A stretch of 64,000 nucleotides of DNA, taken from NCBI GenBank assembly GCA_965240365.1, contig OZ251218.1, positions 2,254,356 through 2,318,355 on the forward strand, written 5' to 3'. The stretch comes from Gammaproteobacteria bacterium (lineage in GTDB: Bacteria; Pseudomonadota; Gammaproteobacteria; Eutrophobiales; Eutrophobiaceae). Each line of letters opens with the position of its first letter. Position 1 is the first letter of the stretch. Below, piece after piece: positions 1,800 through 41,039 of this stretch. The position numbers and the translations under genes were made by a program. The notes below the pieces were generated by a model that was not told where the DNA came from, searched no databases, and was given only the letters and a program-made list of their open reading frames with translations.

Positions 1800-1854
1800 G
1801 AGAGGCAGGTTACTGGTTGGGGCAACTGTTTGCAAGTTACCGTGACATTGCCCT

Positions 1855-2045: not shown

Positions 2046-4550
2046 TTACCACTCAAGCTCTACGCCCAACTTAACCAGGCGCGGCGGACCTTGCATTAAT
2101 CTTGGATTGCTTGCTCTTGTTACCCAGTAGGCTTCGTCGGTCAGATTGTCCACATTTAGCCGCAGGGTTAGCCCCTTACCGGCAATTTTTGTCTCGTAGC
2201 GCGCGCCGATATCAAATAGCGTGATATCGTCGAGATACCACCGTTTGTCCGGATCGATCGGGATTTTACCTCGGTAACGGGCGCTTGCCGTCAACGTCAG
2301 TGGCAAACCCGGCGCGCGGTACTCGCCATAAAGGCTGAACTGCTCGCGGACCTTCCCAGGTATGCTTTTGCCATCAAGCGTACCGCCCGTGGTTTTCTGG
2401 TTGGTGGCGTCCAGCCACATGGCGCTGGCCGTCAGAAGCCAATACCGGCCTAAGCGGAATTTGCCGTTGAGTTCCAGGCCCTGGTAGCGGGCTTCGCCGT
2501 CCTGGGTGAAGACATTAGCCGGGGTGGTATAGGTGAGCGCGCGTTCCGTTCGGAACAGCGCGGCGGTGGCTGACCAGTCATCAGCTTCGGCCTTTGCTCC
2601 GAACTCGTACTGCTTGCTGACAGACGGCGGGAAGATTTGACCGGCGTTGGCCGCTGTTCTTGGCGCCGTTGCCCCTTGTTCCAGGGCTTCTATATAACTT
2701 CCGTATAAGGATAAGTTATCCAGTGGGCGAAAGACGGCGGCAAAGGTGGGGGTAAGTGCGCTCTTGTCGTAATCCGAGAGCTTGAGGTCCAGATTACCGT
2801 ACCGCAAGCCGAGGATGATGTCCCAGTCCTCACCGATTCTTAGTGTATCTGACAGGAATAGCTCCCGCCGACGATCGGCATACCATTCGCTTAACGCGAA
2901 AGTCTGGTCTCTGTTAAAATAAAAAGAAGTGCCAAATGGATTATTAATCTCAACCGGATTGGACAGGTTACCCGCATTGGGTATATCAATGAATGTCTTT
3001 TTGGAGAAAGGTTTTTCGTTAAAAGGTTTTTTGTCAATCTGATCATCATAAGTGTCAATTCTGCGTATTTCAGTATATGAAGCGCCTACTGCCAACTCAT
3101 GCGATACGGGCCCGGTTGTGAAGATGCCGTTGATCATTGCCTGCGATTGCGAACTTTCACTTAGAAGTGATTGCGTATGTCCTAATCGCAACGAGTAGTT
3201 GCCGCCAGAATCAGAAAAGATCAATGGTAAACCACGCTCCTCATCATTCTTTAACTGACGATGCGCCAGGGTCAGTTTCCAGTCCGCGGCAAAGTTCCAG
3301 GAAAGGTCTGTGCCGTAGGTTTCATGAATCGTACTCTGACCTGACCAGGAGGGGGCAAGTCTTCGACTACCGTCAATGGGTGCGGGTGGTTTATTGATAT
3401 TCCTAAATCCAATAGCGCCGTCAGAGTTTGGAACCAAATAGAGATAACCACCTCTGCGTATATGCTTTCCCAACAGCGCGTCGAATCGCCATAGCAAATC
3501 AGGCGTGATTTGCCAGTCCAGGGCGATGGAACCTGAATTACGGCGTGACTCGCCGTCGTTGATATAGGTGTCTCCCGATTCGTGGATCACATTGACGCGG
3601 TAACCAAAACGATCATCGGCGCCCAGTCGCCCACCCACATCCCCATGCGCCAGCGCCAGGCCGCTGTCCATCACCTGTGTGCTTAGGCTCCGAAAAGGTT
3701 GGTTTGTGGGCCGTTTCATTACGTAGTTGACAATGCCGCCTGGCGCCCCAAACCCGTACAGGAAGCCACTGGCGCCCTTGAGAATGTCAATCCGTTCCAG
3801 GTGCTCCAGAGGTAGATCTCTCGAAAACACAAATGCACTCAGGCCGTCAATTTTTTGTCCAGTAGCAAGGTCTGGTCGTAGACCTCGTATGTTCAGCGAC
3901 CAATTTGCACCCACAAGATTATCCGGCATCAGGCTGATTGAGGCATCTCCCTTGGTGATGTCAGCTAATGAGCGCGCCTGTTTGTTTTTTATCAAGTCAC
4001 TCGAATAGACTTCAATGCTGTAAGGTGTGTCTTTGAGTAGTTTGTTACCGAGCACGCCGACATTGGCGTCTTCCACGCGATAGGCTTTTTCGGCATCGCC
4101 GGACAACCACGGCTCTGCCGATTGCGCCTCCCCTTCCACCGTCAGCGGCGCCATTAGTATGGGTTCTTCCTCCTCCGGCGCGGATTCGAGCACGGCGGTA
4201 TTGGCGGCCGTGAGCCGGTAGGCGATGCCCGTGCCGGCCAGCAGTTGGCGGAGCGCCTCGGTATGTTGCAGTGCGCCGCTGACGCCGGGCGATTGCACGC
4301 CCTCAAGCCGGCTGGTGGCATAGGCAAAGGAAAGCCCGGTTTGCTCCGAGAAACGGTCCAGCGCCGAGGCCAGCGGCTGGGGCGGGATGGAGAAGGTCTG
4401 CACCGCGCCGGTCCCGGCTCTGGCAGGGGCGGCGGGTTCGGCCGCTGTGGCGCCGAGTGTCAGCAAGCCGAGGCCGATGCCTGCAATGAGGGTGCGTAGC
4501 GCCGTCAGCGTCGGTTGGCCGGCGGTTGCCGGTGGGTTGTGCGTTGTCAT
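2046..4550 (-). CDS. TonB-dependent outer-membrane receptor/transducer (FecA-like) with N-terminal STN signalling domain
   Basis: Signal peptide, STN-like FSIPPQPLASALDRFSEQTGLSFAY, plug and beta-barrel motifs, C-terminal ...KLGVELEW; start moved to ATG at 4548-4550 with AGGAG 10 nt upstream; downstream of fecI/fecR on the same strand. Confidence 0.85.
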   Translation of the reverse strand: MTTHNPPATAGQPTLTALRTLIAGIGLGLLTLGATAAEPAAPARAGTGAVQTFSIPPQPLASALDRFSEQTGLSFAYATSRLEGVQSPGVSGALQHTEALRQLLAGTGIAYRLTAANTAVLESAPEEEEPILMAPLTVEGEAQSAEPWLSGDAEKAYRVEDANVGVLGNKLLKDTPYSIEVYSSDLIKNKQARSLADITKGDASISLMPDNLVGANWSLNIRGLRPDLATGQKIDGLSAFVFSRDLPLEHLERIDILKGASGFLYGFGAPGGIVNYVMKRPTNQPFRSLSTQVMDSGLALAHGDVGGRLGADDRFGYRVNVIHESGDTYINDGESRRNSGSIALDWQITPDLLWRFDALLGKHIRRGGYLYLVPNSDGAIGFRNINKPPAPIDGSRRLAPSWSGQSTIHETYGTDLSWNFAADWKLTLAHRQLKNDEERGLPLIFSDSGGNYSLRLGHTQSLLSESSQSQAMINGIFTTGPVSHELAVGASYTEIRRIDTYDDQIDKKPFNEKPFSKKTFIDIPNAGNLSNPVEINNPFGTSFYFNRDQTFALSEWYADRRRELFLSDTLRIGEDWDIILGLRYGNLDLKLSDYDKSALTPTFAAVFRPLDNLSLYGSYIEALEQGATAPRTAANAGQIFPPSVSKQYEFGAKAEADDWSATAALFRTERALTYTTPANVFTQDGEARYQGLELNGKFRLGRYWLLTASAMWLDATNQKTTGGTLDGKSIPGKVREQFSLYGEYRAPGLPLTLTASARYRGKIPIDPDKRWYLDDITLFDIGARYETKIAGKGLTLRLNVDNLTDEAYWVTRASNPRLMQGPPRLVKLGVELEW

Positions 4551-4739
4551 GTCTGTTTGACTCCTGTTGTTGAGTGTAAAAGTAAGGCGAATGCGTGGCA
4601 TTTGCCCGCTTGTACCTAATAGACGAGTGAGCGGCGCAAGATCGGTGCTTTTTTTTGAGGTTTTTTTGATTTTGTGTGGATAAAGGGGGTTTGGGGTGGG
4701 GTTTTGGATGGTATTTAGCCGGTTGGGGGTTAGAAAGGG

Positions 4740-5200
4740 TCATCCCGGCAAGCCGGGATGTATTTTATAAACCACTGGATTCCAGCTTTCGCTGGAATGA
4801 CGATGGGGGCAATAGGCGCATTATGAGCGATACTAAACGATACCGTGGCCAGGATACCTGACGCCTTATTTTAGATAAGGTGACCCTGCATTCCTGCTAA
4901 AGCCCTGCCTGCTATAGGCAGACAGGATGACGGAAAGCCAAAACAACACCTCGTTGTCATTCCGGCGAAGGCCGGAATCCAGGAGGACGGGCCGGGATGT
5001 GAAATGAGCGCCAGTCCTGCCTGATTGTCATTCCCGCCTGAGCGGGAATGTATTACATAAACCACTGGATTCCAGCTTTCGCTGGAATGACGGGTAGTAA
5101 GCGGACTGCTGTTTGCCGTTTCTCTGACTTTGTTATCATGCCGGTCTACCCGGTGAAGGCAGGCAGGACGCCGCATGCCGGACATCCTGTGCATAAATGA
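4740..5200. repeat. About 460-bp palindromic-repeat array between fecR and the TonB-dependent transducer
   Basis: gtcattccagcgaaagctggaatccagtggtttat, cattcccgctcaggcgggaatg, cattccggcgaaggccggaatccaggag modules, several in inverted orientation. Confidence 0.7.
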
Positions 5201-5241
5201 CGATAGAAGCGAGGCGCGCCCCCGGGTTTTCTCACCCCGGT

Positions 5242-6291
5242 TCAGTGGACGATGACGAGGAGTTTTGTGAGTCTGGTGACGGACAGTCCGTTGGTGGCGG
5301 CCAGGGCGTCCAGTCCGGCGTCGATCGAGGCAATCGACAGCCGCGCGGTGACGGGTTCGAGGTTGCCGGTGTTGCTCAGCAGCATGATGCGGCCGGGCCG
5401 GTAGCGGTCGATCTCCAACAGGGCGGCGGTCAGTGGCATGTTTATGATCGAGATATAGCCCTGCCGCCAGGCCATAACGGCGGCCGCATTGACCCGCCGC
5501 ACGGGCCCCGGCGGCGCGCCGGTCTGGTAGCGCACCTGTTCGCCGGGCTTGAGCACGGCGGCGCCGGCCTTTGGCGGCGCGTTCTCTGCCCCGGCCGGCG
5601 AGCTTACCCCGACTGTCCCTTCACTCACCGTCACCACAGCCCCGCCGCCGTCGTCCCGCACCGAGAAGATCGTGCCGAGGGCGGTTGAGCGCCCGGCGCG
5701 GGCCATGACCGCAAAGGGGCGGGCCTTGTCTTCAGCGACCTCAAACCGGGCCTCGCCCCGCAACAGCGAGATTTGTCGGCGGTCTTTTGAGTATTGCACC
5801 GAGAGGGCGCTGCCGGTGTTGAGCCAGACGATCGAGCCGTCCGGCAGCTTGATTTGCGCCTGCTCGCCGATGCCGGTGTAGTAGTCGGCCGTGAGCCTGA
5901 GCGCCATGTTCGGCGCTGTCAGCAGGAGAAACAGGGCGCAGGCGGCCGCGAGGCCGCCCCACAAGAACGGCCGGCGGCGCGGGCCGAAGCCGGTTTTCGC
6001 GGCCGGGCGGGAGGGTGTTTCATCTGATCGCCGCGGCGCAATGTCCGGGCGGGCCTGCTCCGGCGGCAGAAAGGCGTCTTGCAGTTCGCCGAGTTCGTCC
6101 CAAAGCGCCTGTAGTTCGGCATAGGCGGCCTGATGGCGCGGGTCAGCCTGCCGCCAGTCTTCAAAACGCGCCCGCTCGGTCTCTGTCGGCGCGCCGGTGG
6201 TGATAAGCAGGAACCATTCCCGGGCGGCCTCGTCGATGGCGGCGCGGTCGTCCCGTGGCCTTGATTTTTCAGGATCGCTGGGCTCGTTCAT
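5242..6291 (-). CDS. fecR: FecR-family anti-sigma factor / iron signal transducer
   Basis: N-terminal REWFLLITTG...RFEDWRQADPRHQAAYAEL motif typical of FecR, single TM, periplasmic FecR domain; sits between an ECF sigma gene and a TonB-dependent transducer. Confidence 0.8.
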   Translation of the reverse strand: MNEPSDPEKSRPRDDRAAIDEAAREWFLLITTGAPTETERARFEDWRQADPRHQAAYAELQALWDELGELQDAFLPPEQARPDIAPRRSDETPSRPAAKTGFGPRRRPFLWGGLAAACALFLLLTAPNMALRLTADYYTGIGEQAQIKLPDGSIVWLNTGSALSVQYSKDRRQISLLRGEARFEVAEDKARPFAVMARAGRSTALGTIFSVRDDGGGAVVTVSEGTVGVSSPAGAENAPPKAGAAVLKPGEQVRYQTGAPPGPVRRVNAAAVMAWRQGYISIINMPLTAALLEIDRYRPGRIMLLSNTGNLEPVTARLSIASIDAGLDALAATNGLSVTRLTKLLVIVH

Positions 6292-6368
6292 GGTGAGGGT
6301 CTATAGCCTTTGGGCAAAGCGCGCGGGCAGCCGCGCGCCGGCTATATTGGCCCTAAAGACCAGCGGTA

Positions 6369-6923
6369 TCAATCGGGTTCAGATTCCTGGCCGGCTGATT
6401 CGCGGTCGTCCGGCGCCGGATCGTGAAATTGGCGGCGGGCCTCAAGCAGGGCTGACATGACCGCTTTCATGTCTTTGTAGATGGTGGTTATGCCGATACC
6501 GAGTTGGGCGGCGATCTCGGCCTGGGATTTGCCTTCATAGCGGGTGAGGTAGAAGATCTGGCGACCGCGGGGGCTGAGCCGCTCAATTTCCACCCTGAGG
6601 CAGTCAAATTCGGCCCGCGCCAGGGCATGGCGTTCCGGGGTCAGTTCGTTGGCCTGCGGCCAGACCACGGCCTGCGCCTCCTCCAGGATTTCGCCGCGCC
6701 GCTTTTCGACCCGGATATGGTCGGTGGCGAGGTTCGCGGCCATGCTGAAGAGATAGGCGCGGTGGTCGCGTATGGGCGGACATTCTTTTATGCTGCGCAG
6801 CTTGAGGTAGAGATCCTGAACGAGGTCGGCGGCAAGGCTGGGCGAGTCGAGGCGCTTGCTCAGAAACCGCAGCAATTCGAGCTTGTGCTCCAGGTAGGTC
6901 TGCATTAATACCGAATGCGACAT
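6369..6923 (-). CDS. fecI: ECF sigma-70 factor (FecI-like)
   Basis: Region 2 (DLVQDLYLKL) and region 4 HTH (SQAEIAAQLGIGITTIYKDM) signatures; 184 aa. Confidence 0.85.
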   Translation of the reverse strand: MSHSVLMQTYLEHKLELLRFLSKRLDSPSLAADLVQDLYLKLRSIKECPPIRDHRAYLFSMAANLATDHIRVEKRRGEILEEAQAVVWPQANELTPERHALARAEFDCLRVEIERLSPRGRQIFYLTRYEGKSQAEIAAQLGIGITTIYKDMKAVMSALLEARRQFHDPAPDDRESAGQESEPD

Positions 6924-7546: not shown

Positions 7547-8212
7547 TTATGCCTGCCCCTCTCCGTCATTCTGGCGGGTCCGAGACGGGCAGGCCCCGGA
7601 CTGTCGTTTCCGCAGAAAATATTGTCTGGCCACCCAGACGCAGAACAGCGGCGCGCCCGCGCCCGCGAGCAGCAGGAAGTAGTAGTCGAGTTGCAGCAAG
7701 GTCACGATCGGGGTCAGGTATAAAATATCCTCGGCTTCCAGGAACAGCTTTTCTACATCGGCATCCCCGGCGTTTGCCGATTTTTTTTCCAGTTCGGACA
7801 GCCCGTGTATGAAGATAAAGATAGCGGCCACCGCCAGACCGGAAATGCCGCCCAGGAGGCCGGCATGGCCGCCGGCGCCGCCCTGCATCAGGCCGATGCC
7901 CAGGCCGACAAACAGGGAGATATTCACCAGCGCGTCCGAGTACAGGTCAAAATAATGCCCGAATGCGCTGCTGTTGCCGGTCAGGCGGGCCAGTTCGCCA
8001 TCGGTGTGATCGAGGAAATTGGAGATCACAAAAAGCAGCGCGCCGATATTGGCGTGCAGATAGCCGCCCACGCAAAAAAAATAGAACGCGAGCAACCCGC
8101 AGGCGAGACGCAGGGCGGTCAGATGGTTAGGCGTGATGAAGGTGTTTTTTAAGGGATAGACCAGGCGGCAGGCCAGCCGCGCGTCCCAGGGTTTGTCCTC
8201 AGCCCCGGCCAT
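7547..8212 (-). CDS. CDP-alcohol phosphatidyltransferase family membrane protein
   Basis: Exact D-x2-DG-x2-AR-x8-G-x3-D-x3-D motif (DHTDGELARLTGNSSAFGHYFDLYSD); multiple TM helices; start overlaps the stop of the upstream hpnN-like gene by 14 bp. Confidence 0.75.
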   Translation of the reverse strand: MAGAEDKPWDARLACRLVYPLKNTFITPNHLTALRLACGLLAFYFFCVGGYLHANIGALLFVISNFLDHTDGELARLTGNSSAFGHYFDLYSDALVNISLFVGLGIGLMQGGAGGHAGLLGGISGLAVAAIFIFIHGLSELEKKSANAGDADVEKLFLEAEDILYLTPIVTLLQLDYYFLLLAGAGAPLFCVWVARQYFLRKRQSGACPSRTRQNDGEGQA

Positions 8213-10793
8213 GATTCCCCCCGGACGGATTCTGCCAGATTAAAAAGGCGGGCAGTACCAGCAGCGTGGCGATCATCATCGAAATCAGGCCGGTTGCGAG
8301 CAGCAGGCCCATACTGGCCGTGCCGAGGTGCGCCGAAAAGGCCAGATTGCCGATGCTGAATACGGTCGTCAGCGAACTGATGATCACGCCGCGCGTGGCG
8401 CTGGTGCTAAAGATATTGCGCTTGTGGCCCTGTTCCTGCCGAAAACGATCCGCGATATGGATCGCGCTATCGACGCCGATGCCGAGCAGCAACGGCAGGC
8501 CGATGATATTGGCGAAATTGAGCGGGATCTTAAACAGCAGGATAAGGCCGGCGGTAAAGAGCCCGCCGGTCAGGACGGTCAGCAGTATCAACACGGCGTC
8601 CCGCTTGACCCGGACCAGCAACAGCAGCAATAGCGTGATCGCGATCAAGGCGTAGCTGAACGCGGAGGTAAACGCCGCGATCACGGCCTCGCCGGCCTCG
8701 ACCCGGATAACGGGCAGGCCGGTCACGGCCGCGTCTTTTGCCTGTAGCTGCCGGACAAAACGCGCGATGGCCGGATTATCATTCAGGTCTTCCTTTGGTT
8801 GCAGTTGCAGTTTATAAACCCCGTCGCTGAGCCAGCGATCACGCGCATCGTCCGGCAGGCTGTCCAGAGTAACCGGCCCGGCCGCGAGCGCGTCATTCAG
8901 GCCGTCGATGCGCCCGTTCAGGTTGCCGAGCATCCGTTGTTCAATGTCCGGCAGCCGCTCAGGGGCGAGCAGGGCGCGGTTTAGATTGGCATACAGCCTG
9001 TCAAGCCGCGCGCCGCGGTTTTCCTGGCTGACAGTTTCAAGCCGCGCCAGGAATTGCCGGAGCGCCGCGGTCCGCGTTTCGTTGTTAATCCCGGGGCCTG
9101 CCGCCATCTCCAGCGGCCCCATAAACAGGTTCATGTCATCAATAATAAATAATTTTTCCTGCTGGTTTTGGGGGATCAGATCGGGCAGCCAGATCACATC
9201 GTCAACCAGTTCCAGCGCCGCAAATTCCTCTTTAGCCCGTTTGGCCTCGGGTATTGATTTTTTTAACAGCAGGCCGTGCCAGGGCGAGTTGTCAGGCTCG
9301 CTTAAAAGGTCTCTATAGGTTTGCACCGATTCATTTTCGGGGTCTTGTAGATTGAGCGGATTAAAATCAAAATTCAGCCGGTGTATCTGCGAAAGCGCCG
9401 CCGCGCCAAGCAGGGCGGCGACCAGCAGTATTTGTTTTGGATAGCGGTACGGTATGCGGCTCAGGCGGTCTGCCAGGGCGGCGATGCGCTGGTTGGCGGG
9501 GCGGGGTCGGCAGGGTTTCAGGCTTAACAGCGCCGGCAGCAACAGGAAGGTATAGAGCACGCTGATGAACATGCCGCTGCCGGCTATCCAGCCCAGTTCG
9601 GCCACGCCCTCATAGTCTGTCGGGATAAACGAGTAAAAGCCGATCGCCGTGGTCAGCGCGCATAAGGCCAGGGAGCGAAAGAGAGTGAGGCCGGCGGTCT
9701 TTAATGCGCCCTCCGGTCTTGCGCCGGATAAGATCTGTTCCCGGTAGCGCAGCGTCAGGTGAATGGCAAAATCAATGCCGAGGCCGATATACAATACCGC
9801 AAAGGCCACCGAGATCAGGTTCAGTTCGCCGACCGTGAGCGTGGCAAAGGCGGTGGTCGCAATCAGCCCCATTAATAATGTTATGAGACAGGCGCCGACC
9901 AGCCACCATGATCCCAGTCCGAGCAGCAACAGGCCGCTGACCAGTATGATCGAGGCGGCGATCGCCACGGTATTGGCCTTTGCCACACTTTGCAGTTCTT
10001 CATTGGCCAGCGCCACGCTGCCGGTCAGGCGGATATTCGTATTGCCGCGGTTCAGATCGAGCGCGGCGCCGGCCGCGCGTATCTGGCGGATAGCCTCGGC
10101 CCCCGGCAGGAAGCCGGCCCCCGGTTCCACTTCCAACAGGATGAATTCACGGTAAACCGCCTTTTGTGCGCTGTTGACAGCCATCAACCTTTGCCAGGAA
10201 ACGGGATAGCGCTCATCTTCCAGGCTGCGGTTCAACTCGGCCAGCAGGGCGTCAATGTCAATATCCTCGCCGGCCTCAATGGCCTGCAAGGCGTTGTCCA
10301 GCATGGCGAACAGGCCGCGCAGGTTATTATCCTGCAACAGCGCGCCGAGGAAGGGCTGAATCTGCGCGAGTTGATCTGCCAGGCTTTGCAGTTCTGTTTC
10401 CTCAAGAAACAAAAAGGCGGATTCACGGAAAAAAGGCAGCGCCGGCGGGTAATAAACCGATTTGATCCACTCCGGTTCGGAAGCCAGCGCCCGCGTCAGG
10501 CGCAGGGCGCTGTCGGCGGCCTCGTCCGGCGTGGCGGCTTCGACCACGACCAGGATGGTATTGACAAACTGCGGAAATAATCTTTCATATTCGATATCCA
10601 GTTTGCGCCAGTCCAGTTCCTCGGACAGCATATCGGCCGTATCGGCGCTCATGCCGAGGTTGTCTTTGATATAGAAGACAGCGCCGAGCGTCAGCGCGAT
10701 GACGCCGAGAATAATGGCAAGACGGCGCCGTTCCACGAACGTTATCCAGCCCGTAATGAATCGCTCCGGCCATGTCGGGGATGATGGGCGCAT
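8199..10793 (-). CDS. hpnN: MMPL/RND-superfamily exporter, HpnN-like (hopanoid transporter)
   Basis: 864 aa, 12 TM in two 6-TM bundles with large periplasmic loops; last gene of the sqs-shc-hpnG operon; gene symbol from context and size. Confidence 0.7.
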   Translation of the reverse strand: MRPSSPTWPERFITGWITFVERRRLAIILGVIALTLGAVFYIKDNLGMSADTADMLSEELDWRKLDIEYERLFPQFVNTILVVVEAATPDEAADSALRLTRALASEPEWIKSVYYPPALPFFRESAFLFLEETELQSLADQLAQIQPFLGALLQDNNLRGLFAMLDNALQAIEAGEDIDIDALLAELNRSLEDERYPVSWQRLMAVNSAQKAVYREFILLEVEPGAGFLPGAEAIRQIRAAGAALDLNRGNTNIRLTGSVALANEELQSVAKANTVAIAASIILVSGLLLLGLGSWWLVGACLITLLMGLIATTAFATLTVGELNLISVAFAVLYIGLGIDFAIHLTLRYREQILSGARPEGALKTAGLTLFRSLALCALTTAIGFYSFIPTDYEGVAELGWIAGSGMFISVLYTFLLLPALLSLKPCRPRPANQRIAALADRLSRIPYRYPKQILLVAALLGAAALSQIHRLNFDFNPLNLQDPENESVQTYRDLLSEPDNSPWHGLLLKKSIPEAKRAKEEFAALELVDDVIWLPDLIPQNQQEKLFIIDDMNLFMGPLEMAAGPGINNETRTAALRQFLARLETVSQENRGARLDRLYANLNRALLAPERLPDIEQRMLGNLNGRIDGLNDALAAGPVTLDSLPDDARDRWLSDGVYKLQLQPKEDLNDNPAIARFVRQLQAKDAAVTGLPVIRVEAGEAVIAAFTSAFSYALIAITLLLLLLVRVKRDAVLILLTVLTGGLFTAGLILLFKIPLNFANIIGLPLLLGIGVDSAIHIADRFRQEQGHKRNIFSTSATRGVIISSLTTVFSIGNLAFSAHLGTASMGLLLATGLISMMIATLLVLPAFLIWQNPSGGNHGRG

Positions 10794-10834: not shown

Positions 10835-10975
10835 CCGTTATCCTGGCCACGGTATCGTTAGTATTGTTCATAATATGCCTATCGCCCCCGTTGTCATTCC
10901 AGCGAAGGCTGGAATCCAGTGGTTTATGTCATACATTCCCGCCCAGGCGGGAATGACAATTCCCCCGCTATGTTA
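10835..10975. repeat. Palindromic repeat cluster
   Basis: ttgtcattccagcgaaggctggaatccagtggtttatgtcatacattcccgcccaggcgggaatgacaat. Confidence 0.6.
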
Positions 10976-10979
10976 GTAA

Positions 10980-11339
10980 TTAGATGAGGTGACCCTGGCC
11001 CTCATAAATCTGCCTCTTTGTAAACAGCGCTTTGGCCACAAAGTCAATATGTCTTTTTAACGGCGGATAGCTGATGTGTTCATACAGGGTGATATCGACC
11101 TTGTGCGGAATCATGCTTTCCAGAAAGCAGGTATAGAGGCGATCGCCGTCCCGTTCGCTGATGTTGCCGTAGAGCACCAGATCAATATCGGAGACGCGCG
11201 TAAATGTCCCGGTCGCCCGGGAGCCAAACAGCCCCACTCGTTCTATGGCGGCGCAGTTGTCTCTTAAGATATCCCTTATGCTTTGCAGATATTGCTTTGC
11301 AGATATTGCGGTTTTATGCCGTGCTTCATTCCGCTTCAT
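10980..11339 (-). CDS. Minimal nucleotidyltransferase (MNT/MntA-type antitoxin of HEPN/MNT module)
   Basis: GS-x9-13-D-x-D signature (LFGSRATGTFTRVSDIDLVL); 119 aa; overlaps upstream HEPN gene by 14 bp. Confidence 0.75.
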   Translation of the reverse strand: MKRNEARHKTAISAKQYLQSIRDILRDNCAAIERVGLFGSRATGTFTRVSDIDLVLYGNISERDGDRLYTCFLESMIPHKVDITLYEHISYPPLKRHIDFVAKALFTKRQIYEGQGHLI

Positions 11340-11757
11340 CCATGATCCTTACGGCCAGTGTTTCATACAGGGCGCCAAAACACCCATCAATATAAAGGCG
11401 GCTGATTCGATCTATAACCTGTTCAAATTTTTTGAAATCATAGGTATGACTCATTTTGTTGCGGTCATCCAGGGCCTCCAGCCAGATATCGGGCCGGTCG
11501 ATCAATCTGGCGTTGCCCGCTTCCCTGATCACGGTGCTTGGAAACACCTCCGGAAATACGAAATGCTCATATTCCATATAATCCTTTATGGTCTTCCAGG
11601 CCAGTTCCATGCAAAATTCAAAACGCTGGATCATGCCCTCTTTGGCGATTTGTTCCAGTTCTTCCTGCCGTTGCCGGTCGCATATTTCCCGCAACAATAC
11701 ATAAGCGCGCCTGTAATTATCAAAGCGATATTGCCACCTCGGTTTTTGCTTCATCAT
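11326..11757 (-). CDS. HEPN-domain protein, HI0074/HepT-like nucleotidyltransferase substrate-binding protein (toxin of HEPN/MNT pair)
   Basis: RFEFCMELAWKTIKDYM and C-terminal region match HI0074-family HEPN; 143 aa; paired with the MNT gene. Confidence 0.7.
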   Translation of the reverse strand: MMKQKPRWQYRFDNYRRAYVLLREICDRQRQEELEQIAKEGMIQRFEFCMELAWKTIKDYMEYEHFVFPEVFPSTVIREAGNARLIDRPDIWLEALDDRNKMSHTYDFKKFEQVIDRISRLYIDGCFGALYETLAVRIMDEAE

Positions 11758-11774: not shown

Positions 11775-12551
11775 TTAATGCCTTTGGTCCGTATCATCAT
11801 AAAGAAAATGCCGTGTTTTTAAATCCGCCGCAATGATTTTTAGCGCGTGTATGGCCTTGCGGTAGCGGTTTGCCAGGGTGATCAGGGCGGCTATCTGGCC
11901 CGGTTGTCTTAGCACTGAAACGAGAAAGCCGGGCAGGCGCGGCCGGCCCAGGTTGTCGGTGTGTTCGGTGACCGCGGCGGGGAGGGTGTCATCAAGCGTG
12001 TCCGCGATCGCGCGCACGACCAGCAGATCGAGTTTGTGTCGCCGCGCCTCGGCCGCGAGCGCGGCGCTTTCCATGTCAACCGCGCTGGCCCCCGTGGTTT
12101 CTGCCAGCGCGCGTTTTTGCGCCGGGCCGCGGCAGATTTGATCGACCGAGGCCAGCGGCGCGGCGCGGGCATTGTGCCCCCGGCGGCGCAGCATTTGCAG
12201 CACCCGGTCGCGCCAGTGATGGCGCGGGTCATAGCTGATCTCCGCGCCGGCAATACGGCTGGCGACCAGCAGATCGCCCGGCCCGAGGCCGCGCCTGATG
12301 GCACCGGCCACGCCCCAACTGACCAGCGCCCCGATGTTAAGCGCGCGGAGCTGGCCCGCGCTCTTGAGCGCCGCCCGCTGACCCGCGCCGCTCAGACATA
12401 AAAACAGGTTTTTTTCAATTTCTACAGGGCGGGCAATGGACAGTTTTCCGGCATGGAGGCAGCTTGCCTCGGCAGGGAGCGCGGCAATGACGCCGAGCCT
12501 GGGGTTCAAGCCTGTTCTGCGAGCCGGTTGCGGTAGCGGGCCAGCGCCCAT
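11775..12551 (-). CDS. hpnG: Purine-nucleoside phosphorylase / MTA-SAH nucleosidase family protein, HpnG-like (adenosylhopane nucleosidase)
   Basis: PNP_UDP_1-fold motifs (GVIAALPAEA, SGAG, ASAVDMESAALA); directly downstream of shc. Start uncertain: ATG 12551 overlaps shc by 46 bp, or TTG at 12509 in a TTGA overlap with the shc stop. Confidence 0.6.
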   Translation of the reverse strand: MGAGPLPQPARRTGLNPRLGVIAALPAEASCLHAGKLSIARPVEIEKNLFLCLSGAGQRAALKSAGQLRALNIGALVSWGVAGAIRRGLGPGDLLVASRIAGAEISYDPRHHWRDRVLQMLRRRGHNARAAPLASVDQICRGPAQKRALAETTGASAVDMESAALAAEARRHKLDLLVVRAIADTLDDTLPAAVTEHTDNLGRPRLPGFLVSVLRQPGQIAALITLANRYRKAIHALKIIAADLKTRHFLYDDTDQRH

Positions 12552-14449
12552 AGCGGAAAATATTTGCTATAGCCGTGATATTTCAAATAGAAGACCCGCG
12601 GGAAACCGGGCGCGGTATAAACCGCGTCATACCAGTGGCCATCGGGCAGTTGGGTGTCGAGCAGATAGTTGACGCCCTTGCGGATGGTCTCCGTGTCAGG
12701 GCCGTCCACGGCCAACAGCCCCAGCAATGCCCAGGCCGTCTGGAAGGCCGTGCTTTGAAACGGCCGGGGGTGCCGGGGCGGATAATAGCTGTCGTTGCTT
12801 TCGCCCCAGCCGCCATCGGCGTTTTGCATGTCCTGCAAATAGGCGACGGCGCGGCGGATATAGTCCTGCTCCGGCGCTTCTCCGGCAATCTCCAGCGCGG
12901 ACAGGACCGACCAGGCGCCATAGATATAGTTGGTCCCCCAACGGCCAAACCAGGAGCCGTCTTCCTCCTGTTTTTCCTTGAGATAATGGATCGCCCGCTG
13001 GATATGGGCCGCATATTTCTCCTTGTCGGCCAGACTCAAGAGGGCAATCACGCGGCCGGTCACATCGGCAGTGGGCGGGTCCAGCAGGGCGCCATGATCG
13101 GCAAAGGGGATGGCGTTTAGATAGTATTGGGTATTGTTGACCTCGAATGAGCCAAAACCGCCGCCACTGGACTGCATACCGGCCACCCAGTTGGCCGCGC
13201 GCCGGATGGATTCGGCGTAGCGCGGCTGGTCGGCGCGCTGCATGGCCCAGGCCACCATCGAGGTGTCATCCAGGTCCGGGTAGTAATAGTTGCTGTATTG
13301 AAAGGCCCAGCCGCCGCCGTCCAGACCGGGCCTGGCGATGCGCCAGTCGCCCGGTTCATCGGCCAGTTGTCTGTCTTTCAGCCAGTCGAGCGCCTGCTCG
13401 ACCGCGGCGCTGTCGCCGGTTTCGATCAGCGCCTGGCTGGCCAGGCAGGTATCCCAGACCGGCGAGACGCAGGGCTGCACGTATTGACTGTTACCGCGCC
13501 GGCAGAGCAGGGCGTCAATGGCCCGGCGGGCCTTGCGGCGCACGGGGTGCTCTTTGGCATAGCCCCGGATGACCAGCGATTCAAACACGTTGACCATGGC
13601 CGGGAAGATGCCGCCGATGCCGTGTTCTTCATTCATCCTGGCAAGAAACCATTGTTCGCACTTGCGGATGGAGTACTGGCGCACGAATTTGGGCACCAGT
13701 TTTTCCAGCAGGCGGCCGGCATGGTCAAGCGTCAAAAACACGCGGCTGAGCGCCGTGGTCACCTTGAAATAGTGCTGCTCATCCTCCGGCGGGGTAATAA
13801 AAAGCTCGCGGATGTCTATCCCGCGCGGGTTGGCGGCCTCCGGCTTCATCGTGCAGAGGATGAATAACGGCACCATCACGGTGCGGGACCAATACGAGAC
13901 CTTGTCGATATGAAACGGGAACCACTTCGGCAGGATGATGACCTCGGCCGGGATAAAGGGCGTGGCCCGCCAGGGCACCTGACCGAACAGGGCCATGGTA
14001 ATGCGCGTGAACACATTGCAGTGGGCCGCGCCGCCATGATTCAGGATCAGGTTTCTGGCGCGCGCCATGTGTTCCGCATGGGCATCGTCGCCCACCAGCT
14101 TGAGGGCGTAGTAGGCCTTGACGGAGCAGCTTATATCAAAATCCCCGCCGCTATAAAGCGTCCAGCCGCCTTCCTCGGTCTGCCGGTCACGCAGATAGCA
14201 GGCAATTTCCTGCTCGGTCTGGTCATCGACCTCGCCGGCGAAGTGATTCATTAATATATATTCCGCCGGGATGGTGCAGTCCGCCTCCAGTTCATAGACC
14301 CAGTGACCGTCTTCATGCTGCTCGGTCAGCAGTTGCCCGCGCGCGGCCCGGATCGCGTCTTCCAGGCTGGGCCTCGACCTGGGCGCCGTGACCGGGGCAA
14401 GGGCCTCGGCGGGTTCGGTCTCGGCGACGGGTTGAATATGGAGCGTCAT
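12506..14449 (-). CDS. shc: Squalene-hopene cyclase
   Basis: DxDDTA motif (YYPDLDDTSMV), multiple QW repeats, GGWGE; about 647 aa from ATG 14449 (upstream TTG at 14491 possible). Confidence 0.9.
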   Translation of the reverse strand: MTLHIQPVAETEPAEALAPVTAPRSRPSLEDAIRAARGQLLTEQHEDGHWVYELEADCTIPAEYILMNHFAGEVDDQTEQEIACYLRDRQTEEGGWTLYSGGDFDISCSVKAYYALKLVGDDAHAEHMARARNLILNHGGAAHCNVFTRITMALFGQVPWRATPFIPAEVIILPKWFPFHIDKVSYWSRTVMVPLFILCTMKPEAANPRGIDIRELFITPPEDEQHYFKVTTALSRVFLTLDHAGRLLEKLVPKFVRQYSIRKCEQWFLARMNEEHGIGGIFPAMVNVFESLVIRGYAKEHPVRRKARRAIDALLCRRGNSQYVQPCVSPVWDTCLASQALIETGDSAAVEQALDWLKDRQLADEPGDWRIARPGLDGGGWAFQYSNYYYPDLDDTSMVAWAMQRADQPRYAESIRRAANWVAGMQSSGGGFGSFEVNNTQYYLNAIPFADHGALLDPPTADVTGRVIALLSLADKEKYAAHIQRAIHYLKEKQEEDGSWFGRWGTNYIYGAWSVLSALEIAGEAPEQDYIRRAVAYLQDMQNADGGWGESNDSYYPPRHPRPFQSTAFQTAWALLGLLAVDGPDTETIRKGVNYLLDTQLPDGHWYDAVYTAPGFPRVFYLKYHGYSKYFPLWALARYRNRLAEQA

Positions 14450-14525
14450 CGACAGAAGGCTTGCGGGTCGTTTTTGCCTGAGGCGGCACAAAATGACGCG
14501 CCGGCATGGTCTTTATGGTTATTAT

Positions 14526-15635
14526 TCATTGAGATAGTTTCCCCGTGGCGCCCTGACTACTGGCAAGCGCCGAATTTTCACTTAGTGTCTCACGAATGGC
14601 GGCCATAGGCAAATGTCTGCCCAGAAATCGGAACAGATAATGCAGCATCCGATCCCGGCCGGCCAGCAGGCCAGTTAAAACCACGATCAGCCTCACGCTG
14701 CGGCGGCTGATCTTGACCTGCCGGCCCCGGCTGAAATTCGGATTTTGCCGAATCTTGTCCAATGTCATTACCGCCATGCCCGCGGCCCACAAACAAAAGC
14801 GGCGCAGGCCCTTTTCCTCGGGCGGGATCATCAGGCTATAACGCAGGGCGTTGTCGATATGCCGGTGAGCGATGCCCAGTAATTCTGTCAGGGCCGCCTC
14901 AAAGCCGGGCGCGTTTTGGCCGGGGATTTTTTTGGTAATATCGACCCGGTGTTTATTAAAGACATCCCGCGGCAGCCAGCAGGCGCCGCGTTCGTGATCT
15001 TCCCAAATATCCTTGAGGATATTGGTCATCTGCAAGCCCTGCCCAAAGGAAACGCCAAGTTGCATCAAGGTCGCCCGGTGTTGGTCAAGCGTCGGCGAAT
15101 AGTCACAGAAGAGTTCGGTCAACATCTCGCCCACGACCCCCGCGACGTGATAACAATAGCGCCCCAGATCCTCCAGATCGGCCACGCCGTCCAGCGTCTC
15201 GGCCTCCTGATAGTGCGCCATGCCGGCCGCCATGATCGAGACGCAGCGCGCCAGCGCGGCCCGCTGGCGCGGATTAAAGCCGCGGGTAATGCGGATCACC
15301 GCCGCGATATTGGCGATCAGGTCGTGCTCGGCCTTGCTGGCCGCGGCCGACAGCCGGGGGAAAAGCGCCGCCGAGAAACGGTCCGGATCCAGTTCGCCCT
15401 CGACCACCTTGACGAAGCGTTCGGCATAGTCACGCTTGGCTTCGGCAGACAGGGTCTTGTCATCTTCTATGGTGTCGGCAATACGGCACAGCAGATAGGC
15501 ATTTCCCACGACCCGGCAGAGCGGCGCCGGCAGTTCGGGGATCGTCAGGGCAAAGGTCCGCGACACATGCTGCAAAATCTCATCCTGATAGGCATCGTCA
15601 TCAAGCCGGGTCTGAAAGGCGGTCCTGGGTTTCAT
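14526..15635 (-). CDS. Squalene/phytoene synthase family enzyme (squalene synthase, HpnC/HpnD/Sqs type)
   Basis: Trans-IPPS head-to-head motifs (RIADTIEDD, YCYHVAGVVG); adjacent to shc. ORF-track start at 15746 extends into a repeat element; ATG at 15635 gives about 369 aa. Confidence 0.8.
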   Translation of the reverse strand: MKPRTAFQTRLDDDAYQDEILQHVSRTFALTIPELPAPLCRVVGNAYLLCRIADTIEDDKTLSAEAKRDYAERFVKVVEGELDPDRFSAALFPRLSAAASKAEHDLIANIAAVIRITRGFNPRQRAALARCVSIMAAGMAHYQEAETLDGVADLEDLGRYCYHVAGVVGEMLTELFCDYSPTLDQHRATLMQLGVSFGQGLQMTNILKDIWEDHERGACWLPRDVFNKHRVDITKKIPGQNAPGFEAALTELLGIAHRHIDNALRYSLMIPPEEKGLRRFCLWAAGMAVMTLDKIRQNPNFSRGRQVKISRRSVRLIVVLTGLLAGRDRMLHYLFRFLGRHLPMAAIRETLSENSALASSQGATGKLSQ

Positions 15636-15744
15636 CGTGATGTTGTCTTTGTTTTTATCATGGCGATTAAATGGTTTGCCCGAGGCAGTTAAGCAAAAGC
15701 CGGGCAACGCAGGCATTGTCTTGATGTGTCCGCCCCCCGTGGTC

Positions 15745-15960
15745 ATTCCCGCTTGAGCGTTAATGTATCATAATAAACCATTGGATTCCGACTGTTGTCC
15801 GGATTCAATACTTATTGAGACAAATTAGACAGGCAGGTTAAACAGATTATGTGTGGTTTTGGTTGGTCCTGTTGCTGGCGGGCGGGAATGATGTGAAGCC
15901 AAAACAACACCCCATCGTCATTCCGGCTTTCGCCGTAATGACGGCACAGCGTATCCATCC
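15745..15960. repeat. Palindromic repeat cluster
   Basis: gtcattcccgcttgagcgttaatg, ggcgggaatgatgtgaagccaaaacaacaccccatcgtcattccggctttcgccgtaatgacgg. Confidence 0.55.
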
Positions 15961-40901: not shown

Positions 40902-41039
40902 GCCGTTAAGTTTTTTATGATCGCTTAAAAACGCGCCTGGTACCGATGAAAACCGGCAACAAGATACGCACAAGCCCGGAGAAGATGAACATCCCCGGGC
41001 TTGTGTCCATGCCACCGCGCTCGATCAAGGCGCCAGGCC

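What the first reader, a model, noticed from the sequence alone, without database searches (positions are those of the whole stretch)
7547..10793. CDP-alcohol phosphatidyltransferase translationally coupled to the hpnN-like exporter
A 221-aa enzyme with a perfect CDP-alcohol phosphotransferase motif starts 14 bp inside the 3' end of the 864-aa HpnN-like MMPL transporter, at the distal end of the hopanoid operon. This suggests a head-group transfer step functionally linked to hopanoid or lipid export, which is not part of the canonical hpn gene set as I know it.
Basis: partly seen in the sequence, partly recalled or inferred. Interest (0 to 1): 0.5.

Follow-up and report, generated by a model that had tools for sequence, protein, structure and literature searches.

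The report
Head-group transferase welded to hopanoid exporter
A small membrane enzyme that attaches polar head groups to lipids is coupled to the hopanoid exporter HpnN; its relatives sit in 2-aminoethylphosphonate gene cassettes, which hints at an undescribed phosphonate-bearing hopanoid or partner lipid.

Summary
ORF 7547-8212 (-) encodes a 221-aa CDP-alcohol phosphotransferase with an intact catalytic motif. Its ATG lies 14 nt inside the 3' end of a true HpnN gene (8199-10793), at the end of an SQS-shc-hpnG-hpnN cluster.

It is not PgsA, PssA, PIPS, AIPS or DIPPS. It belongs to a small, distinct clade. In 28 of 36 gammaproteobacterial species loci this clade sits directly after hpnN. In two metagenomic contigs it is fused to HpnN, once in each order.

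In Burkholderiales, Acetobacteraceae, Nevskiales/Steroidobacteraceae and Nostocales the same clade is the transferase of the seven-gene 2-aminoethylphosphonate (AEP) 'Group 1 phosphonolipid' cassette, whose product has never been characterised. That cassette repeatedly abuts or sits inside hopanoid clusters.

The best reading is an enzyme that moves a CMP-activated head group, probably AEP or hydroxy-AEP, onto a lipid alcohol. That alcohol is plausibly an extended hopanoid, and the product would be handed to HpnN.

Donor and acceptor are inferred, not shown. The window itself holds no AEP genes. The hopanoid literature I could search does not discuss the link, although one preprint's supplementary table counts the gene near shc.

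The parts
7547..8212 (-). CDS of the 221-aa CDP-alcohol phosphotransferase, in the clade shared with the AEP 'Group 1 phosphonolipid' cassettes
   Evidence: ORF. PF01066 at 51.3 bits. The AF2 model has pLDDT 89, with one amphipathic helix and six transmembrane helices. Foldseek best match is AF2299, E 1e-5. It is 43-47% identical to the cassette enzymes of Burkholderia and Mycetohabitans.
7934..8011 (-). Codons for the catalytic signature D68xxD71GxxAR76x8G85x3D89x3D93
   Evidence: Read from the translation. All of these residues are at least 90% conserved in both clades of the family.
8199..8212 (-). 14-nt overlap between the hpnN stop codon (8201-8199) and the transferase start codon (8212-8210)
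   Evidence: Across related loci, 18 of 30 junctions lie between -20 and +3 nt.
8215..8222 (-). Shine-Dalgarno-like GGGGGGAA inside the 3' end of hpnN, ending 2 nt before the ATG
   Evidence: Read. This is a sequence inspection only.
8199..10793 (-). hpnN, the RND/MMPL hopanoid transporter (864 aa)
   Evidence: TIGR03480 at 858 bits, cutoff 752; PF03176 MMPL.
10870..10897 (-). Sigma-70-like promoter match (ATGACA-16-TATTAT, 10 of 12 positions) about 77 nt upstream of the hpnN start
   Evidence: This is a consensus match only. It could give hpnN and the transferase their own transcript downstream of the inserted toxin-antitoxin-like pair.
10980..11757 (-). Inserted two-gene nucleotidyltransferase module (HI0074-type substrate-binding subunit 11326-11757; MntA/Pol-beta-type NTase 10980-11339) between hpnG and hpnN
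   Evidence: The same insertion is present in the 75%-identical relative L081 and absent from the other gammaproteobacterial loci.
11775..12551 (-). hpnG-like hopanoid-associated phosphorylase/nucleosidase
   Evidence: TIGR03468 at 163 bits, below the cutoff of 187; PF01048. It overlaps the shc stop by 46 nt.
12506..14491 (-). shc, squalene-hopene cyclase
   Evidence: TIGR01507 at 807 bits, cutoff 431.
14526..15746 (-). Squalene synthase-type SQS/PSY enzyme, first gene of the cluster
   Evidence: PF00494 at 191 bits. TIGR01559 at 120 bits, below its cutoff.

Best explanation
The 221-aa protein is a functional six-helix inner-membrane CDP-alcohol-type phosphotransferase. It is made from the same mRNA as HpnN by translational coupling.

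Its Asp-rich motif should bind divalent metal and a cytidine-nucleotide-activated head group at the cytoplasmic face. A lipid hydroxyl then attacks the donor phosphorus and CMP is released.

The protein belongs to the clade that serves as the transferase of the AEP 'Group 1 phosphonolipid' cassette. The donor is therefore most likely CMP-2-aminoethylphosphonate or its 1-hydroxy derivative.

The gene is wedged against, and occasionally fused to, the hopanoid exporter, and the cassette repeatedly sits inside hopanoid clusters. The acceptor is therefore most plausibly the polyol side chain of an extended hopanoid such as bacteriohopanetetrol. The product would be passed to HpnN for delivery to the outer membrane.

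Shown here: enzyme family, intact active site, fold, conserved coupling to hpnN, and cassette membership of the clade.
Inferred: donor identity (about 0.55), hopanoid acceptor (about 0.4) and hand-over to HpnN.
For: Enzyme and fold:
- PF01066 match and complete motif.
- Confident AF2 model; best structural matches are AF2299, PIPS and DIPPS.

Link to HpnN:
- hpnN lies directly upstream in 28 of 36 gammaproteobacterial loci, with HpnN identity of 37-58%.
- 18 of 30 junctions lie between -20 and +3 nt.
- Fusion ORF HpnN-transferase in L019, 1080 aa.
- Fusion protein transferase-HpnN in P0275, 1089 aa; its HpnN part is 37% identical to the window HpnN, E 2e-132.

Link to AEP:
- The same clade lies next to a 2OG oxygenase, an HpnL-type LPG_synthase_TM protein, a PntC-like NTP transferase, Ppm-PntC, Ppd and AEP transaminase in Nostocales, Nevskia, Steroidobacteraceae, Burkholderia and Mycetohabitans.
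- Other fusions join the transferase to HpnL-like, PntC-like and HalD-like oxygenase domains.
- Between the hpnN-linked clade and the cassette-linked clade, 55 columns are at least 90% conserved with the same residue and none shows a clade-specific fixed difference.
- 22 of 36 gammaproteobacterial loci carry a PhyH-type dioxygenase that also replaces the cassette oxygenase in Scytonema and Brasilonema. In most of them, including 17 of the 26 with a full HpnN match, it lies between hpnG and hpnN.
- L007 has a genuine AEP transaminase beside its cluster, 506 bits.
- The window's 75%-identical relative L081 has a PntC-type gene 8 kb away that is 49% identical to the Nostoc cassette copy.

Cassette inside hopanoid clusters:
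- L046: SQS-hpnG-hpnN-transferase-hpnA-hpnL-oxygenase-PntC-Ppm-Ppd-AEPT.
- L057.
- Mycetohabitans pBRH01, where hpnD/shc/hpnA/hpnH/HpnN/dxs are contiguous with the cassette, and the same pairing holds in 9 of 9 records.
- Roseomonas marmotae, where the cassette lies between hpnH/ispH and polyprenyl synthetase/MMPL/VacJ.
- Scytonema, where HpnI x2 and HpnK lie directly upstream.

Independent published data:
- Ppm and Ppd presence correlates with SHC in Gammaproteobacteria, r 0.43 and 0.38 (Table S7 of 10.1101/2025.07.29.667474).
- A CDP-alcohol transferase family is counted 1409 times in the neighbourhoods of 3662 shc genes (Table S8).
Against: - The 64-kb window holds no Ppm, Ppd, AEP transaminase, PntC, HpnL, HpnA or cassette oxygenase. 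The donor for this particular enzyme therefore rests on homology alone.
- No phosphorus-containing hopanoid turned up in the paper library, and I know of none.
- In B. cenocepacia the cassette lies about 1.9 Mb from shc on the same replicon.
- 15 of 37 cyanobacterial loci show neither hopanoid nor phosphonate neighbours.
- Both HpnN fusions come from metagenome assemblies. One contig is 3.6 kb, and no second copy of the L019-type fusion appeared among 120 close database hits.
- The nearest solved structures are only 18-23% identical, so substrates cannot be read from the model.
- The phosphonate literature predicts a glycerolipid acceptor (PMC8942020, PMC5987646).
Confidence: 0.5

Rival explanations
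1. It is a conventional phosphonolipid synthase. It transfers AEP or hydroxy-AEP from CMP-AEP to diacylglycerol or another glycerolipid or ceramide. The gene sits with hopanoid genes only because both lipids are envelope components that are co-regulated, or because HpnN also carries this lipid.
For: This is the published prediction for the cassette: Group 1 phosphonolipids and the 'Burkholderiales_CDP-OH' family (PMC8942020), and the pathway drawn for Nostoc with DAG/AAG (PMC5987646). From general knowledge, eukaryotic CDP-alcohol phosphotransferases of the CEPT/EPT type make DAG-based phosphonolipids. CEPT1 and CHPT1 are weak profile matches. In B. cenocepacia and many Nostoc genomes the cassette stands apart from hopanoid genes.
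Against: No such phosphonolipid has been found in the organisms that carry the cassette, despite its abundance (PMC8942020). Co-regulation alone does not explain insertion between hpnN and hpnA in about 30 divergent species, two fusions to HpnN, or neighbours that tailor the hopanoid side chain (HpnI, HpnK). The protein has only six transmembrane helices and lacks the additional helices of the roughly 400-residue, DAG-using CEPT1/CHPT1.
Confidence: 0.25
2. In this genome the enzyme does not handle phosphonates. It uses an ordinary CDP-alcohol (CDP-ethanolamine, -choline, -glycerol or -inositol) or CDP-diacylglycerol. The product would be a phospho-linked head group on a hopanoid or a minor phospholipid.
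For: There are no AEP biosynthesis genes in the 64-kb window, nor within 10 kb in most hpnN-linked loci. The best NCBIfam similarities are to inositol-phosphate-type enzymes: AIPS 52.8 bits, DIPPS 36, PIPS 32. PGAP annotates the cassette's PntC-type enzymes as 'phosphocholine cytidylyltransferase family'.
Against: There are no clade-specific fixed residue differences from the AEP-cassette enzymes. The cassette-type PhyH dioxygenase and HpnL travel with the hpnN-linked clade. L046 and L007 tie the clade to AEP genes. All NCBIfam equivalog cutoffs are missed by a wide margin.
Confidence: 0.15
3. It is the housekeeping PgsA (or PssA or Pcs) that merely happens to lie next to hpnN.
For: Some source annotations call relatives 'phosphatidylglycerophosphate synthase'.
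Against: TIGR00560 pgsA scores 32.8 bits against a cutoff of 109.1. PRK10832 PgsA scores 18.5 against 304. pssA scores 25.3 against 107. The PgsA structure 7drk matches at Foldseek E 0.45, against 1e-5 for AF2299. The family is small, with 30 representatives at E<=1e-30 among 1.84 billion, and taxonomically patchy, unlike an essential gene.
Confidence: 0.02
4. The adjacency is fortuitous, the 14-nt overlap has no functional meaning, and the gene is unrelated to hopanoids.
For: Short overlaps are common in compact bacterial operons. The downstream context is not conserved even in the closest relative.
Against: The gene pair is conserved across species whose HpnN proteins are only 37-58% identical. 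Independent associations with hopanoid genes occur in alpha-, beta- and gammaproteobacteria and in cyanobacteria. Fusion proteins exist.
Confidence: 0.03

Closest known systems
CDP-alcohol transferase of the 'Group 1 phosphonolipid' / 'Burkholderiales_CDP-OH' AEP cassette (Yu et al. 2013, as cited in PMC8942020; Li & Horsman 2022, PMC8942020; Nostoc cyanobiont cluster, PMC5987646)
   Same: It is the same protein clade. The window protein is 43-47% identical over 91-97% of its length to the Burkholderia, Cupriavidus and Mycetohabitans copies, and the Nostocales loci match it at 47-53% identity. 55 positions are conserved in both clades and there are no clade-specific fixed differences. The catalytic motif and the six-transmembrane-helix architecture are the same.
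   Different: In the window the gene is detached from the other six cassette genes and is instead the last gene of a hopanoid operon, overlapping hpnN. The cassette's product has never been characterised, so 'phosphonolipid synthase' is itself only a prediction.
AF2299 and IPCT-DIPPS of Archaeoglobus fulgidus (PDB 4o6m/4o6n/4q7c, 4mnd)
   Same: These are the best sequence-profile and fold matches. They share the metal-binding Asp motif on TM2-TM3, six transmembrane helices and an N-terminal interfacial helix. From general knowledge of these enzymes, the DIPPS donor is a water-soluble CDP-alcohol, as proposed here.
   Different: Identity is only 18%. The window protein has no fused cytoplasmic nucleotidyltransferase or CBS-type domain, although PntC fusions exist elsewhere in the family (P0226, P0345). 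The acceptors are different.
Eukaryotic choline/ethanolamine phosphotransferases CEPT1/CHPT1 (PDB 8gyw, 8ero)
   Same: The reaction logic is the same: a CMP-linked small head group is transferred to a lipid alcohol. From general knowledge, related eukaryotic enzymes accept CMP-AEP to make phosphonolipids. They are weak profile matches, E 5e-5 to 8e-4.
   Different: These are much larger proteins (chains of 380-406 residues) that use diacylglycerol as acceptor. The fold match is much weaker, Foldseek E 0.02-0.1.
PgsA / PssA / PIPS / AIPS (bacterial and archaeal CDP-diacylglycerol- or CDP-archaeol-using synthases)
   Same: Same superfamily and same motif.
   Different: Every NCBIfam equivalog cutoff is missed by a factor of three or more. 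In those enzymes the lipid is the CDP-linked donor. Here the context argues for a lipid acceptor and a soluble donor.
Hopanoid side-chain tailoring enzymes HpnI/HpnK/HpnJ and the HpnN export route
   Same: The biological role would be analogous: a polar head group is added to bacteriohopanetetrol and the composite hopanoid is exported. HpnI and HpnK lie directly upstream of the transferase in Scytonema and Nostoc loci.
   Different: The chemistry is unrelated: phospho- or phosphonyl transfer rather than glycosyl transfer. The gene has no hpn name, and the text of the most recent shc-synteny study does not discuss it.

Membership tests
CDP-alcohol phosphotransferase superfamily (PF01066) | Profile match above the curated threshold | tested here: met
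   51.3 bits against a cutoff of 22, E 2e-13.
CDP-alcohol phosphotransferase superfamily (PF01066) | Signature D-x2-D-G-x2-A-R-x8-G-x3-D-x3-D | tested here: met
   D68, D71, G72, A75, R76, G85, D89 and D93 are all present and conserved across the family.
CDP-alcohol phosphotransferase superfamily (PF01066) | Six-transmembrane-helix core with an N-terminal interfacial helix | tested here: met
   The AF2 model has pLDDT 89 and helices at 9-21, 28-48, 51-78, 83-113, 115-144, 152-172 and 176-207. Foldseek probability is 1.00 to AF2299, PIPS and DIPPS.
CDP-alcohol phosphotransferase superfamily (PF01066) | Metal-dependent transfer with release of CMP | not testable with these tools
   Requires an enzyme assay.
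PgsA (CDP-diacylglycerol--glycerol-3-phosphate 3-phosphatidyltransferase) | NCBIfam equivalog score at or above the cutoff | tested here: not met
   TIGR00560 scores 32.8 against 109.1. NF008090 scores 18.5 against 304.
Inositol-phosphate-type synthases (AIPS, PIPS, DIPPS) | NCBIfam equivalog score at or above the cutoff | tested here: not met
   AIPS scores 52.8 against 180. PIPS scores 32.4 against 170. DIPPS scores 36 against 580.
Transferase of the AEP 'Group 1 phosphonolipid' cassette | Orthology-level similarity to the cassette's CDP-OH transferase | tested here: met
   43-53% identity over more than 87% of the length. It forms a single family in the NJ tree. There are no clade-specific fixed differences.
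Transferase of the AEP 'Group 1 phosphonolipid' cassette | Adjacency to Ppm, Ppd, AEP transaminase and PntC | tested here: not met
   None is present in the 64-kb window. Adjacency holds in relatives L046, L057, L047, L065, L076 and the Nostocales, Burkholderia, Mycetohabitans and Roseomonas loci. A PntC-type gene lies 8 kb away in L081.
Transferase of the AEP 'Group 1 phosphonolipid' cassette | Adjacency to the cassette's 2OG oxygenase and HpnL-type LPG_synthase_TM protein | tested here: not met
   Both are absent from the window. The oxygenase is present in 22 and HpnL in 16 of the 33 database loci of the hpnN-linked clade A, in the loci labelled y and L in the tree.
Transferase of the AEP 'Group 1 phosphonolipid' cassette | Product is an AEP-bearing lipid | not testable with these tools
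   The product has never been characterised for any member (PMC8942020).
HpnN (partner gene 8199-10793) | TIGR03480 score at or above the cutoff, and a hopanoid-cluster context | tested here: met
   858 bits against 752. shc and hpnG lie upstream. The stricter NF052374 model scores 575 against 1100, which is not met.
Canonical hpn gene set (hpnA-hpnP, hpnR) | A named hopanoid-associated NCBIfam/TIGRFAM model matches the 221-aa protein | tested here: not met
   No hpn model appears among its NCBIfam hits. The family is listed only as unnamed gene ID '6' in Table S8 of 10.1101/2025.07.29.667474.

The most novel reading that the evidence does not exclude
The enzyme esterifies 2-aminoethylphosphonate or 1-hydroxy-AEP to the side chain of bacteriohopanetetrol or a related extended hopanoid. 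That would create a phosphono-hopanoid, an undescribed class of composite hopanoid that HpnL flips and HpnN exports. It would also explain why the lipid product of the most abundant bacterial phosphonate gene cluster family (Group 1 / Burkholderiales_CDP-OH) has never been found among glycerolipids. It would give HpnL its first proposed function.
Probability: 0.33. Interest if true: 0.85.

Novelty: new variant of a known kind. Interest (0 to 1): 0.65.

Why it matters
Two fields each hold half of this picture. Phosphonate researchers know the seven-gene AEP cassette as the commonest ppm neighbourhood in sequenced bacteria. They have never found its predicted phosphonolipid. Hopanoid researchers list HpnL as function-unknown, and in the text I searched they do not discuss the CDP-alcohol transferase that lies near shc.

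The window shows the transferase at its most telling position: stripped of the rest of the cassette and translationally coupled to the hopanoid exporter.

If the acceptor is a hopanoid, this defines a new lipid class. It would have consequences for outer-membrane biology in Burkholderia, for the Mycetohabitans fungal endosymbiosis and for lichen-forming Nostoc. It would also affect marine and soil phosphonate budgets and the interpretation of hopanoid biomarkers. If the acceptor is a glycerolipid, the data still predict that HpnN or its operon handles a second lipid.

Either way the question becomes testable in organisms with genetic tools.

Tried and rejected
- **PgsA, PssA, Pcs, cardiolipin synthase, AIPS, PIPS, DIPPS:** all rejected on NCBIfam cutoffs and on fold ranking.
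- **More HpnN-transferase fusions of the L019 type:** I searched the 5.8-billion-protein set with the L019 junction region. None appeared among the best 120 hits. The opposite-order fusion P0275 came from the representative search instead.
- **The cyanobacterial B12-radical SAM/DUF4070 neighbour (c8):** I asked whether it is HpnP, HpnJ or HpnR. It reaches no NCBIfam cutoff. The best hit is the PhpK P-methyltransferase family at 82 bits; HpnJ scores 53 and HpnR 44. NCBI names it generically. This stays unresolved.
- **AEP genes, hpnA, hpnL, hpnH, hpnM, hpnS and PntC anywhere in the window:** tblastn found nothing.
- **Rfam scan of the window:** no matches at gathering scores.
- **afdb50 fold library:** unavailable.
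- **Yu et al. 2013 (PMC3870699):** not held in the paper library. It is cited here only through PMC8942020 and PMC5987646.
- **Taxon breakdown of gene '6' in Table S8 of the hopanoid preprint:** not recovered. The figure of 1409 may be inflated by heavily sampled genera and may include other CDP-alcohol transferase families.

Full report
**Observation**

On the minus strand, ORF 7547-8212 encodes 221 aa and ORF 8199-10793 encodes 864 aa. The downstream ATG (8212-8210) lies 14 nt inside the upstream gene, whose TGA is at 8201-8199. A GGGGGGAA run ends 2 nt before the ATG.

The small protein matches PF01066 at 51.3 bits against a cutoff of 22. It carries the complete signature D68xxD71GxxAR76-x8-G85-x3-D89-x3-D93. 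The large protein is HpnN, with TIGR03480 at 858 bits against 752.

Upstream on the same strand are an SQS-type squalene synthase, shc (TIGR01507, 807 bits) and an hpnG-like phosphorylase. A two-gene nucleotidyltransferase module is inserted between hpnG and hpnN. A sigma-70-like match at 10897-10870 could drive hpnN and the transferase as their own unit.

**What the protein is not**

No NCBIfam equivalog is reached. AIPS scores 52.8 against 180, DIPPS 36 against 580, PIPS 32.4 against 170, pgsA 32.8 against 109 and pssA 25.3 against 107.

A profile of the family finds only AF2299, IPCT-DIPPS and, weakly, CEPT1/CHPT1 among solved structures. An AlphaFold model has pLDDT 89, with one interfacial helix and six transmembrane helices. 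It matches AF2299 best (E 1e-5, TM 0.65-0.68), then PIPS and DIPPS. PgsA matches only at E 0.45.

**The family and its neighbours**

The protein has a 97%-identical database twin, relatives at 75-77% identity, and several hundred listed homologues of about 200 aa at 50-64% identity. In a library of 1.84 billion representatives clustered at 50% identity, only 30 score E<=1e-30, so this is a small clade.

A scan of one genome per GTDB species found 404 relatives. I kept the best 80 loci with 10-kb flanks, clustered their ORFs and annotated the recurrent clusters. Two neighbourhood types emerged.

- **Type A: gammaproteobacterial MAGs.** The usual order is (hpnL)-SQS-(shc)-hpnG-(PhyH-type 2OG dioxygenase)-hpnN-transferase-hpnA. 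All 36 loci have hopanoid genes. 28 have hpnN immediately upstream, two of them cut by a contig end. HpnN identity to the window ranges from 37% to 58%.
- **Type B: Nostocales, Nevskia, Steroidobacteraceae, Burkholderia, Cupriavidus and Mycetohabitans.** The order is transferase-2OG oxygenase-HpnL-type LPG_synthase_TM protein-PntC-like NTP transferase-Ppm/PntC fusion-Ppd-AEP transaminase.

Type B is the seven-gene 'Group 1 phosphonolipid' or 'Burkholderiales_CDP-OH' core described by Li & Horsman. [quoted passage not shown] It was also drawn for lichen Nostoc, with hpnL included (PMC5987646).

**The two neighbourhood types are one system**

- A neighbour-joining tree separates an hpnN-linked clade, which includes the window, from a cassette-linked clade. 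L046 branches at the base of the cassette-linked clade.
- L046 carries everything in a single run: SQS-hpnG-hpnN-transferase-hpnA-hpnL-oxygenase-PntC-Ppm-Ppd-AEPT.
- Between the clades, 55 alignment columns are at least 90% conserved with the same residue and none is fixed differently. Identity is 53% between clades and 59% within the hpnN-linked clade. I see no sign of a change in chemistry.
- The PhyH-type dioxygenase that lies between hpnG and hpnN in most type A loci takes the place of the cassette oxygenase in Scytonema and Brasilonema. Its best NCBIfam hit is a phosphonate hydroxylase model, at 193 bits and below the cutoff.
- L007 has a genuine AEP transaminase (506 bits) next to hpnL-SQS-hpnG-dioxygenase-transferase.
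- The window's closest mapped relative, L081, has the same layout as the window. It carries a PntC-type gene 8 kb downstream that is 49% identical to the Nostoc cassette copy.

**The cassette keeps turning up inside hopanoid clusters in unrelated lineages**

- In Mycetohabitans rhizoxinica pBRH01, hpnD, shc, a glycosyltransferase, hpnA, hpnH, ispH, an MlaC-like protein, an HpnN-sized MMPL transporter and dxs run directly into the cassette. All nine Mycetohabitans records carry both.
- In Steroidobacteraceae locus L057, shc-hpnG-hpnA precede the cassette.
- In Scytonema and several Nostoc loci, HpnK (280 bits against 233) and two HpnI copies (357 and 366 bits against 310) lie directly upstream, together with an ABC exporter and an unassigned B12-radical SAM protein.
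- Counter-examples exist. In B. cenocepacia the cassette is about 1.9 Mb from shc. 15 of 37 cyanobacterial loci show neither context.

**Coupling to HpnN**

Of 30 loci in which both genes could be placed, 18 have a junction between -20 and +3 nt. The window is at -14 and L081 at -17.

In L019 the two genes form one 1080-aa ORF in the order HpnN-transferase. No second example of that order was found.

The exhaustive representative search did yield P0275, 1089 aa, in the opposite order. An N-terminal transferase is followed by a full-length HpnN homologue that is 37% identical to the window HpnN over residues 16-851, E 2e-132. It comes from a 3.6-kb contig.

Both orders are topologically permissible. 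From general knowledge of the two families, both proteins have an even number of membrane helices and cytoplasmic termini.

Other fusions join the transferase to HpnL-like domains (P0243, P0310), PntC-like domains (P0226, P0345) and the HalD-like oxygenase (P0217).

**Mechanism**

Established: this is an intact CDP-alcohol-type phosphotransferase co-encoded with HpnN, and it belongs to the AEP-cassette clade.

Inferred, step by step:
1. A PntC-type enzyme makes CMP-AEP. Rice et al. showed that PntC enzymes prefer AEP (PMC6697681).
2. The transferase moves the phosphonyl head group onto a lipid hydroxyl at the cytoplasmic face and releases CMP.
3. The 2OG oxygenase hydroxylates the head group.
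4. HpnL flips the product. This rests on analogy to the MprF flippase domain and is speculative.
5. HpnN carries the product towards the outer membrane.

The acceptor is the open point. Repeated embedding in hopanoid operons, the HpnI/HpnK neighbours and the HpnN fusions favour an extended hopanoid. The published prediction is a glycerolipid.

My estimates are: CMP-AEP-type donor about 0.55, hopanoid acceptor about 0.4, glycerolipid acceptor about 0.3.

**Prior knowledge**

No paper in the library combines hopanoids with CDP-alcohol transferases or phosphonolipids in a relevant way.

A genome-mining paper on Acetobacteraceae remarks that terpenoid genes are often linked to ppm, 'suggesting ... 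an undiscovered terpene-phosphonate' (PMC8776678).

The latest shc-synteny study names hpnL, hpnM, hpnS and hpnT and calls HpnL's function unclear. Its Table S8 lists 'IPR000462 CDP-alcohol phosphatidyltransferase' as unnamed gene 6 with frequency 1409 against 3662 shc genes, higher than hpnG or hpnN, and the searched text never mentions it. Its Table S7 shows Ppm and Ppd presence correlated with SHC in Gammaproteobacteria, r 0.43 and 0.38. The raw signal is therefore public but uninterpreted.

**Verdict**

The gene is best filed as a new variant of a known kind: the Group 1 phosphonate-cassette transferase captured by the hopanoid export operon.

The window alone cannot settle donor or acceptor, because it contains none of the AEP genes.

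Noticed in passing
window 10980-11757 (-): An HI0074-type substrate-binding subunit and an MntA/Pol-beta-type nucleotidyltransferase, resembling a type VII toxin-antitoxin pair, are inserted between hpnG and hpnN. The same insertion is present in the 75%-identical relative L081 and in no other surveyed locus.
   Followed up: partly
window 39760-41015 (-): dnaJ is split into two ORFs. The J domain and G/F region lie in 40464-41015, and the zinc-finger and C-terminal domains lie in 39760-40467. This indicates either a frameshift (pseudogene) or an indel error in the assembly.
   Followed up: partly
window 36400-38628 (-): A 742-aa ORF with no Pfam match lies in a block of about 40% GC, against 53-64% for most of the window, next to dapB, dnaJ and dnaK. 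It may be a horizontally acquired orphan.
   Followed up: no
window 1083-1835 (-), repeats at 1172-1506: A coiled-coil ORF with a weak CCDC90-like match is built on tandem DNA repeats of 63 nt (3 copies, 95% matching) and 54 nt (3.2 copies, 96% matching).
   Followed up: partly
window 2046-6923 (-): Directly downstream of the transferase lies an ECF sigma factor (6369-6923), a FecR-type anti-sigma factor (5242-6291) and, judging from its sequence only, a TonB-dependent receptor (2046-4601). This context is not shared with L081, so the transferase is the last conserved gene of the cluster.
   Followed up: partly
L019 772-4014; P0275 (L087 176-3445): There are two natural fusions of this transferase with HpnN, in opposite orders. 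Both come from metagenome assemblies. Only P0275 is in the protein databases.
   Followed up: yes
P0243, P0310, P0226, P0345, P0217, P0322: Other fusions of the same transferase family exist: with an HpnL-like LPG_synthase_TM domain, with PntC-like NTP transferases, with a HalD-like oxygenase, and, oddly, with SCO1/SenC.
   Followed up: partly
L024 8329-9984, and cluster c8 in 21 cyanobacterial loci: A 551-aa B12-binding radical SAM protein with DUF4070 lies immediately upstream of the transferase in Chlorogloeopsis, Scytonema, Brasilonema and a few Nostoc/Tolypothrix loci, and up to several kb upstream in other Nostoc loci. It matches no NCBIfam equivalog. The best hit is the PhpK P-methyltransferase family at 82 bits. 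It could be a hopanoid methylase, an HpnJ-like enzyme or a phosphonate methyltransferase.
   Followed up: partly
L084 22399-24136 and 26187-24283 (Mycetohabitans pBRH01): dxs and two hypothetical genes bridge HpnN and the AEP cassette. The 360-aa hypothetical protein has no NCBIfam match.
   Followed up: no
window 12506-12551: The shc stop and the hpnG start overlap by 46 nt. The same overlap occurs in L081, so the upstream genes of the cluster also appear to be translationally coupled.
   Followed up: no
Supplementary Tables S7 and S8 of bioRxiv 10.1101/2025.07.29.667474: In the published tables a CDP-alcohol phosphatidyltransferase family (gene ID 6) is counted 1409 times across the neighbourhoods of 3662 shc genes. 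PEP mutase presence correlates with SHC in Gammaproteobacteria, r 0.43. The paper's text comments on neither point.
   Followed up: partly
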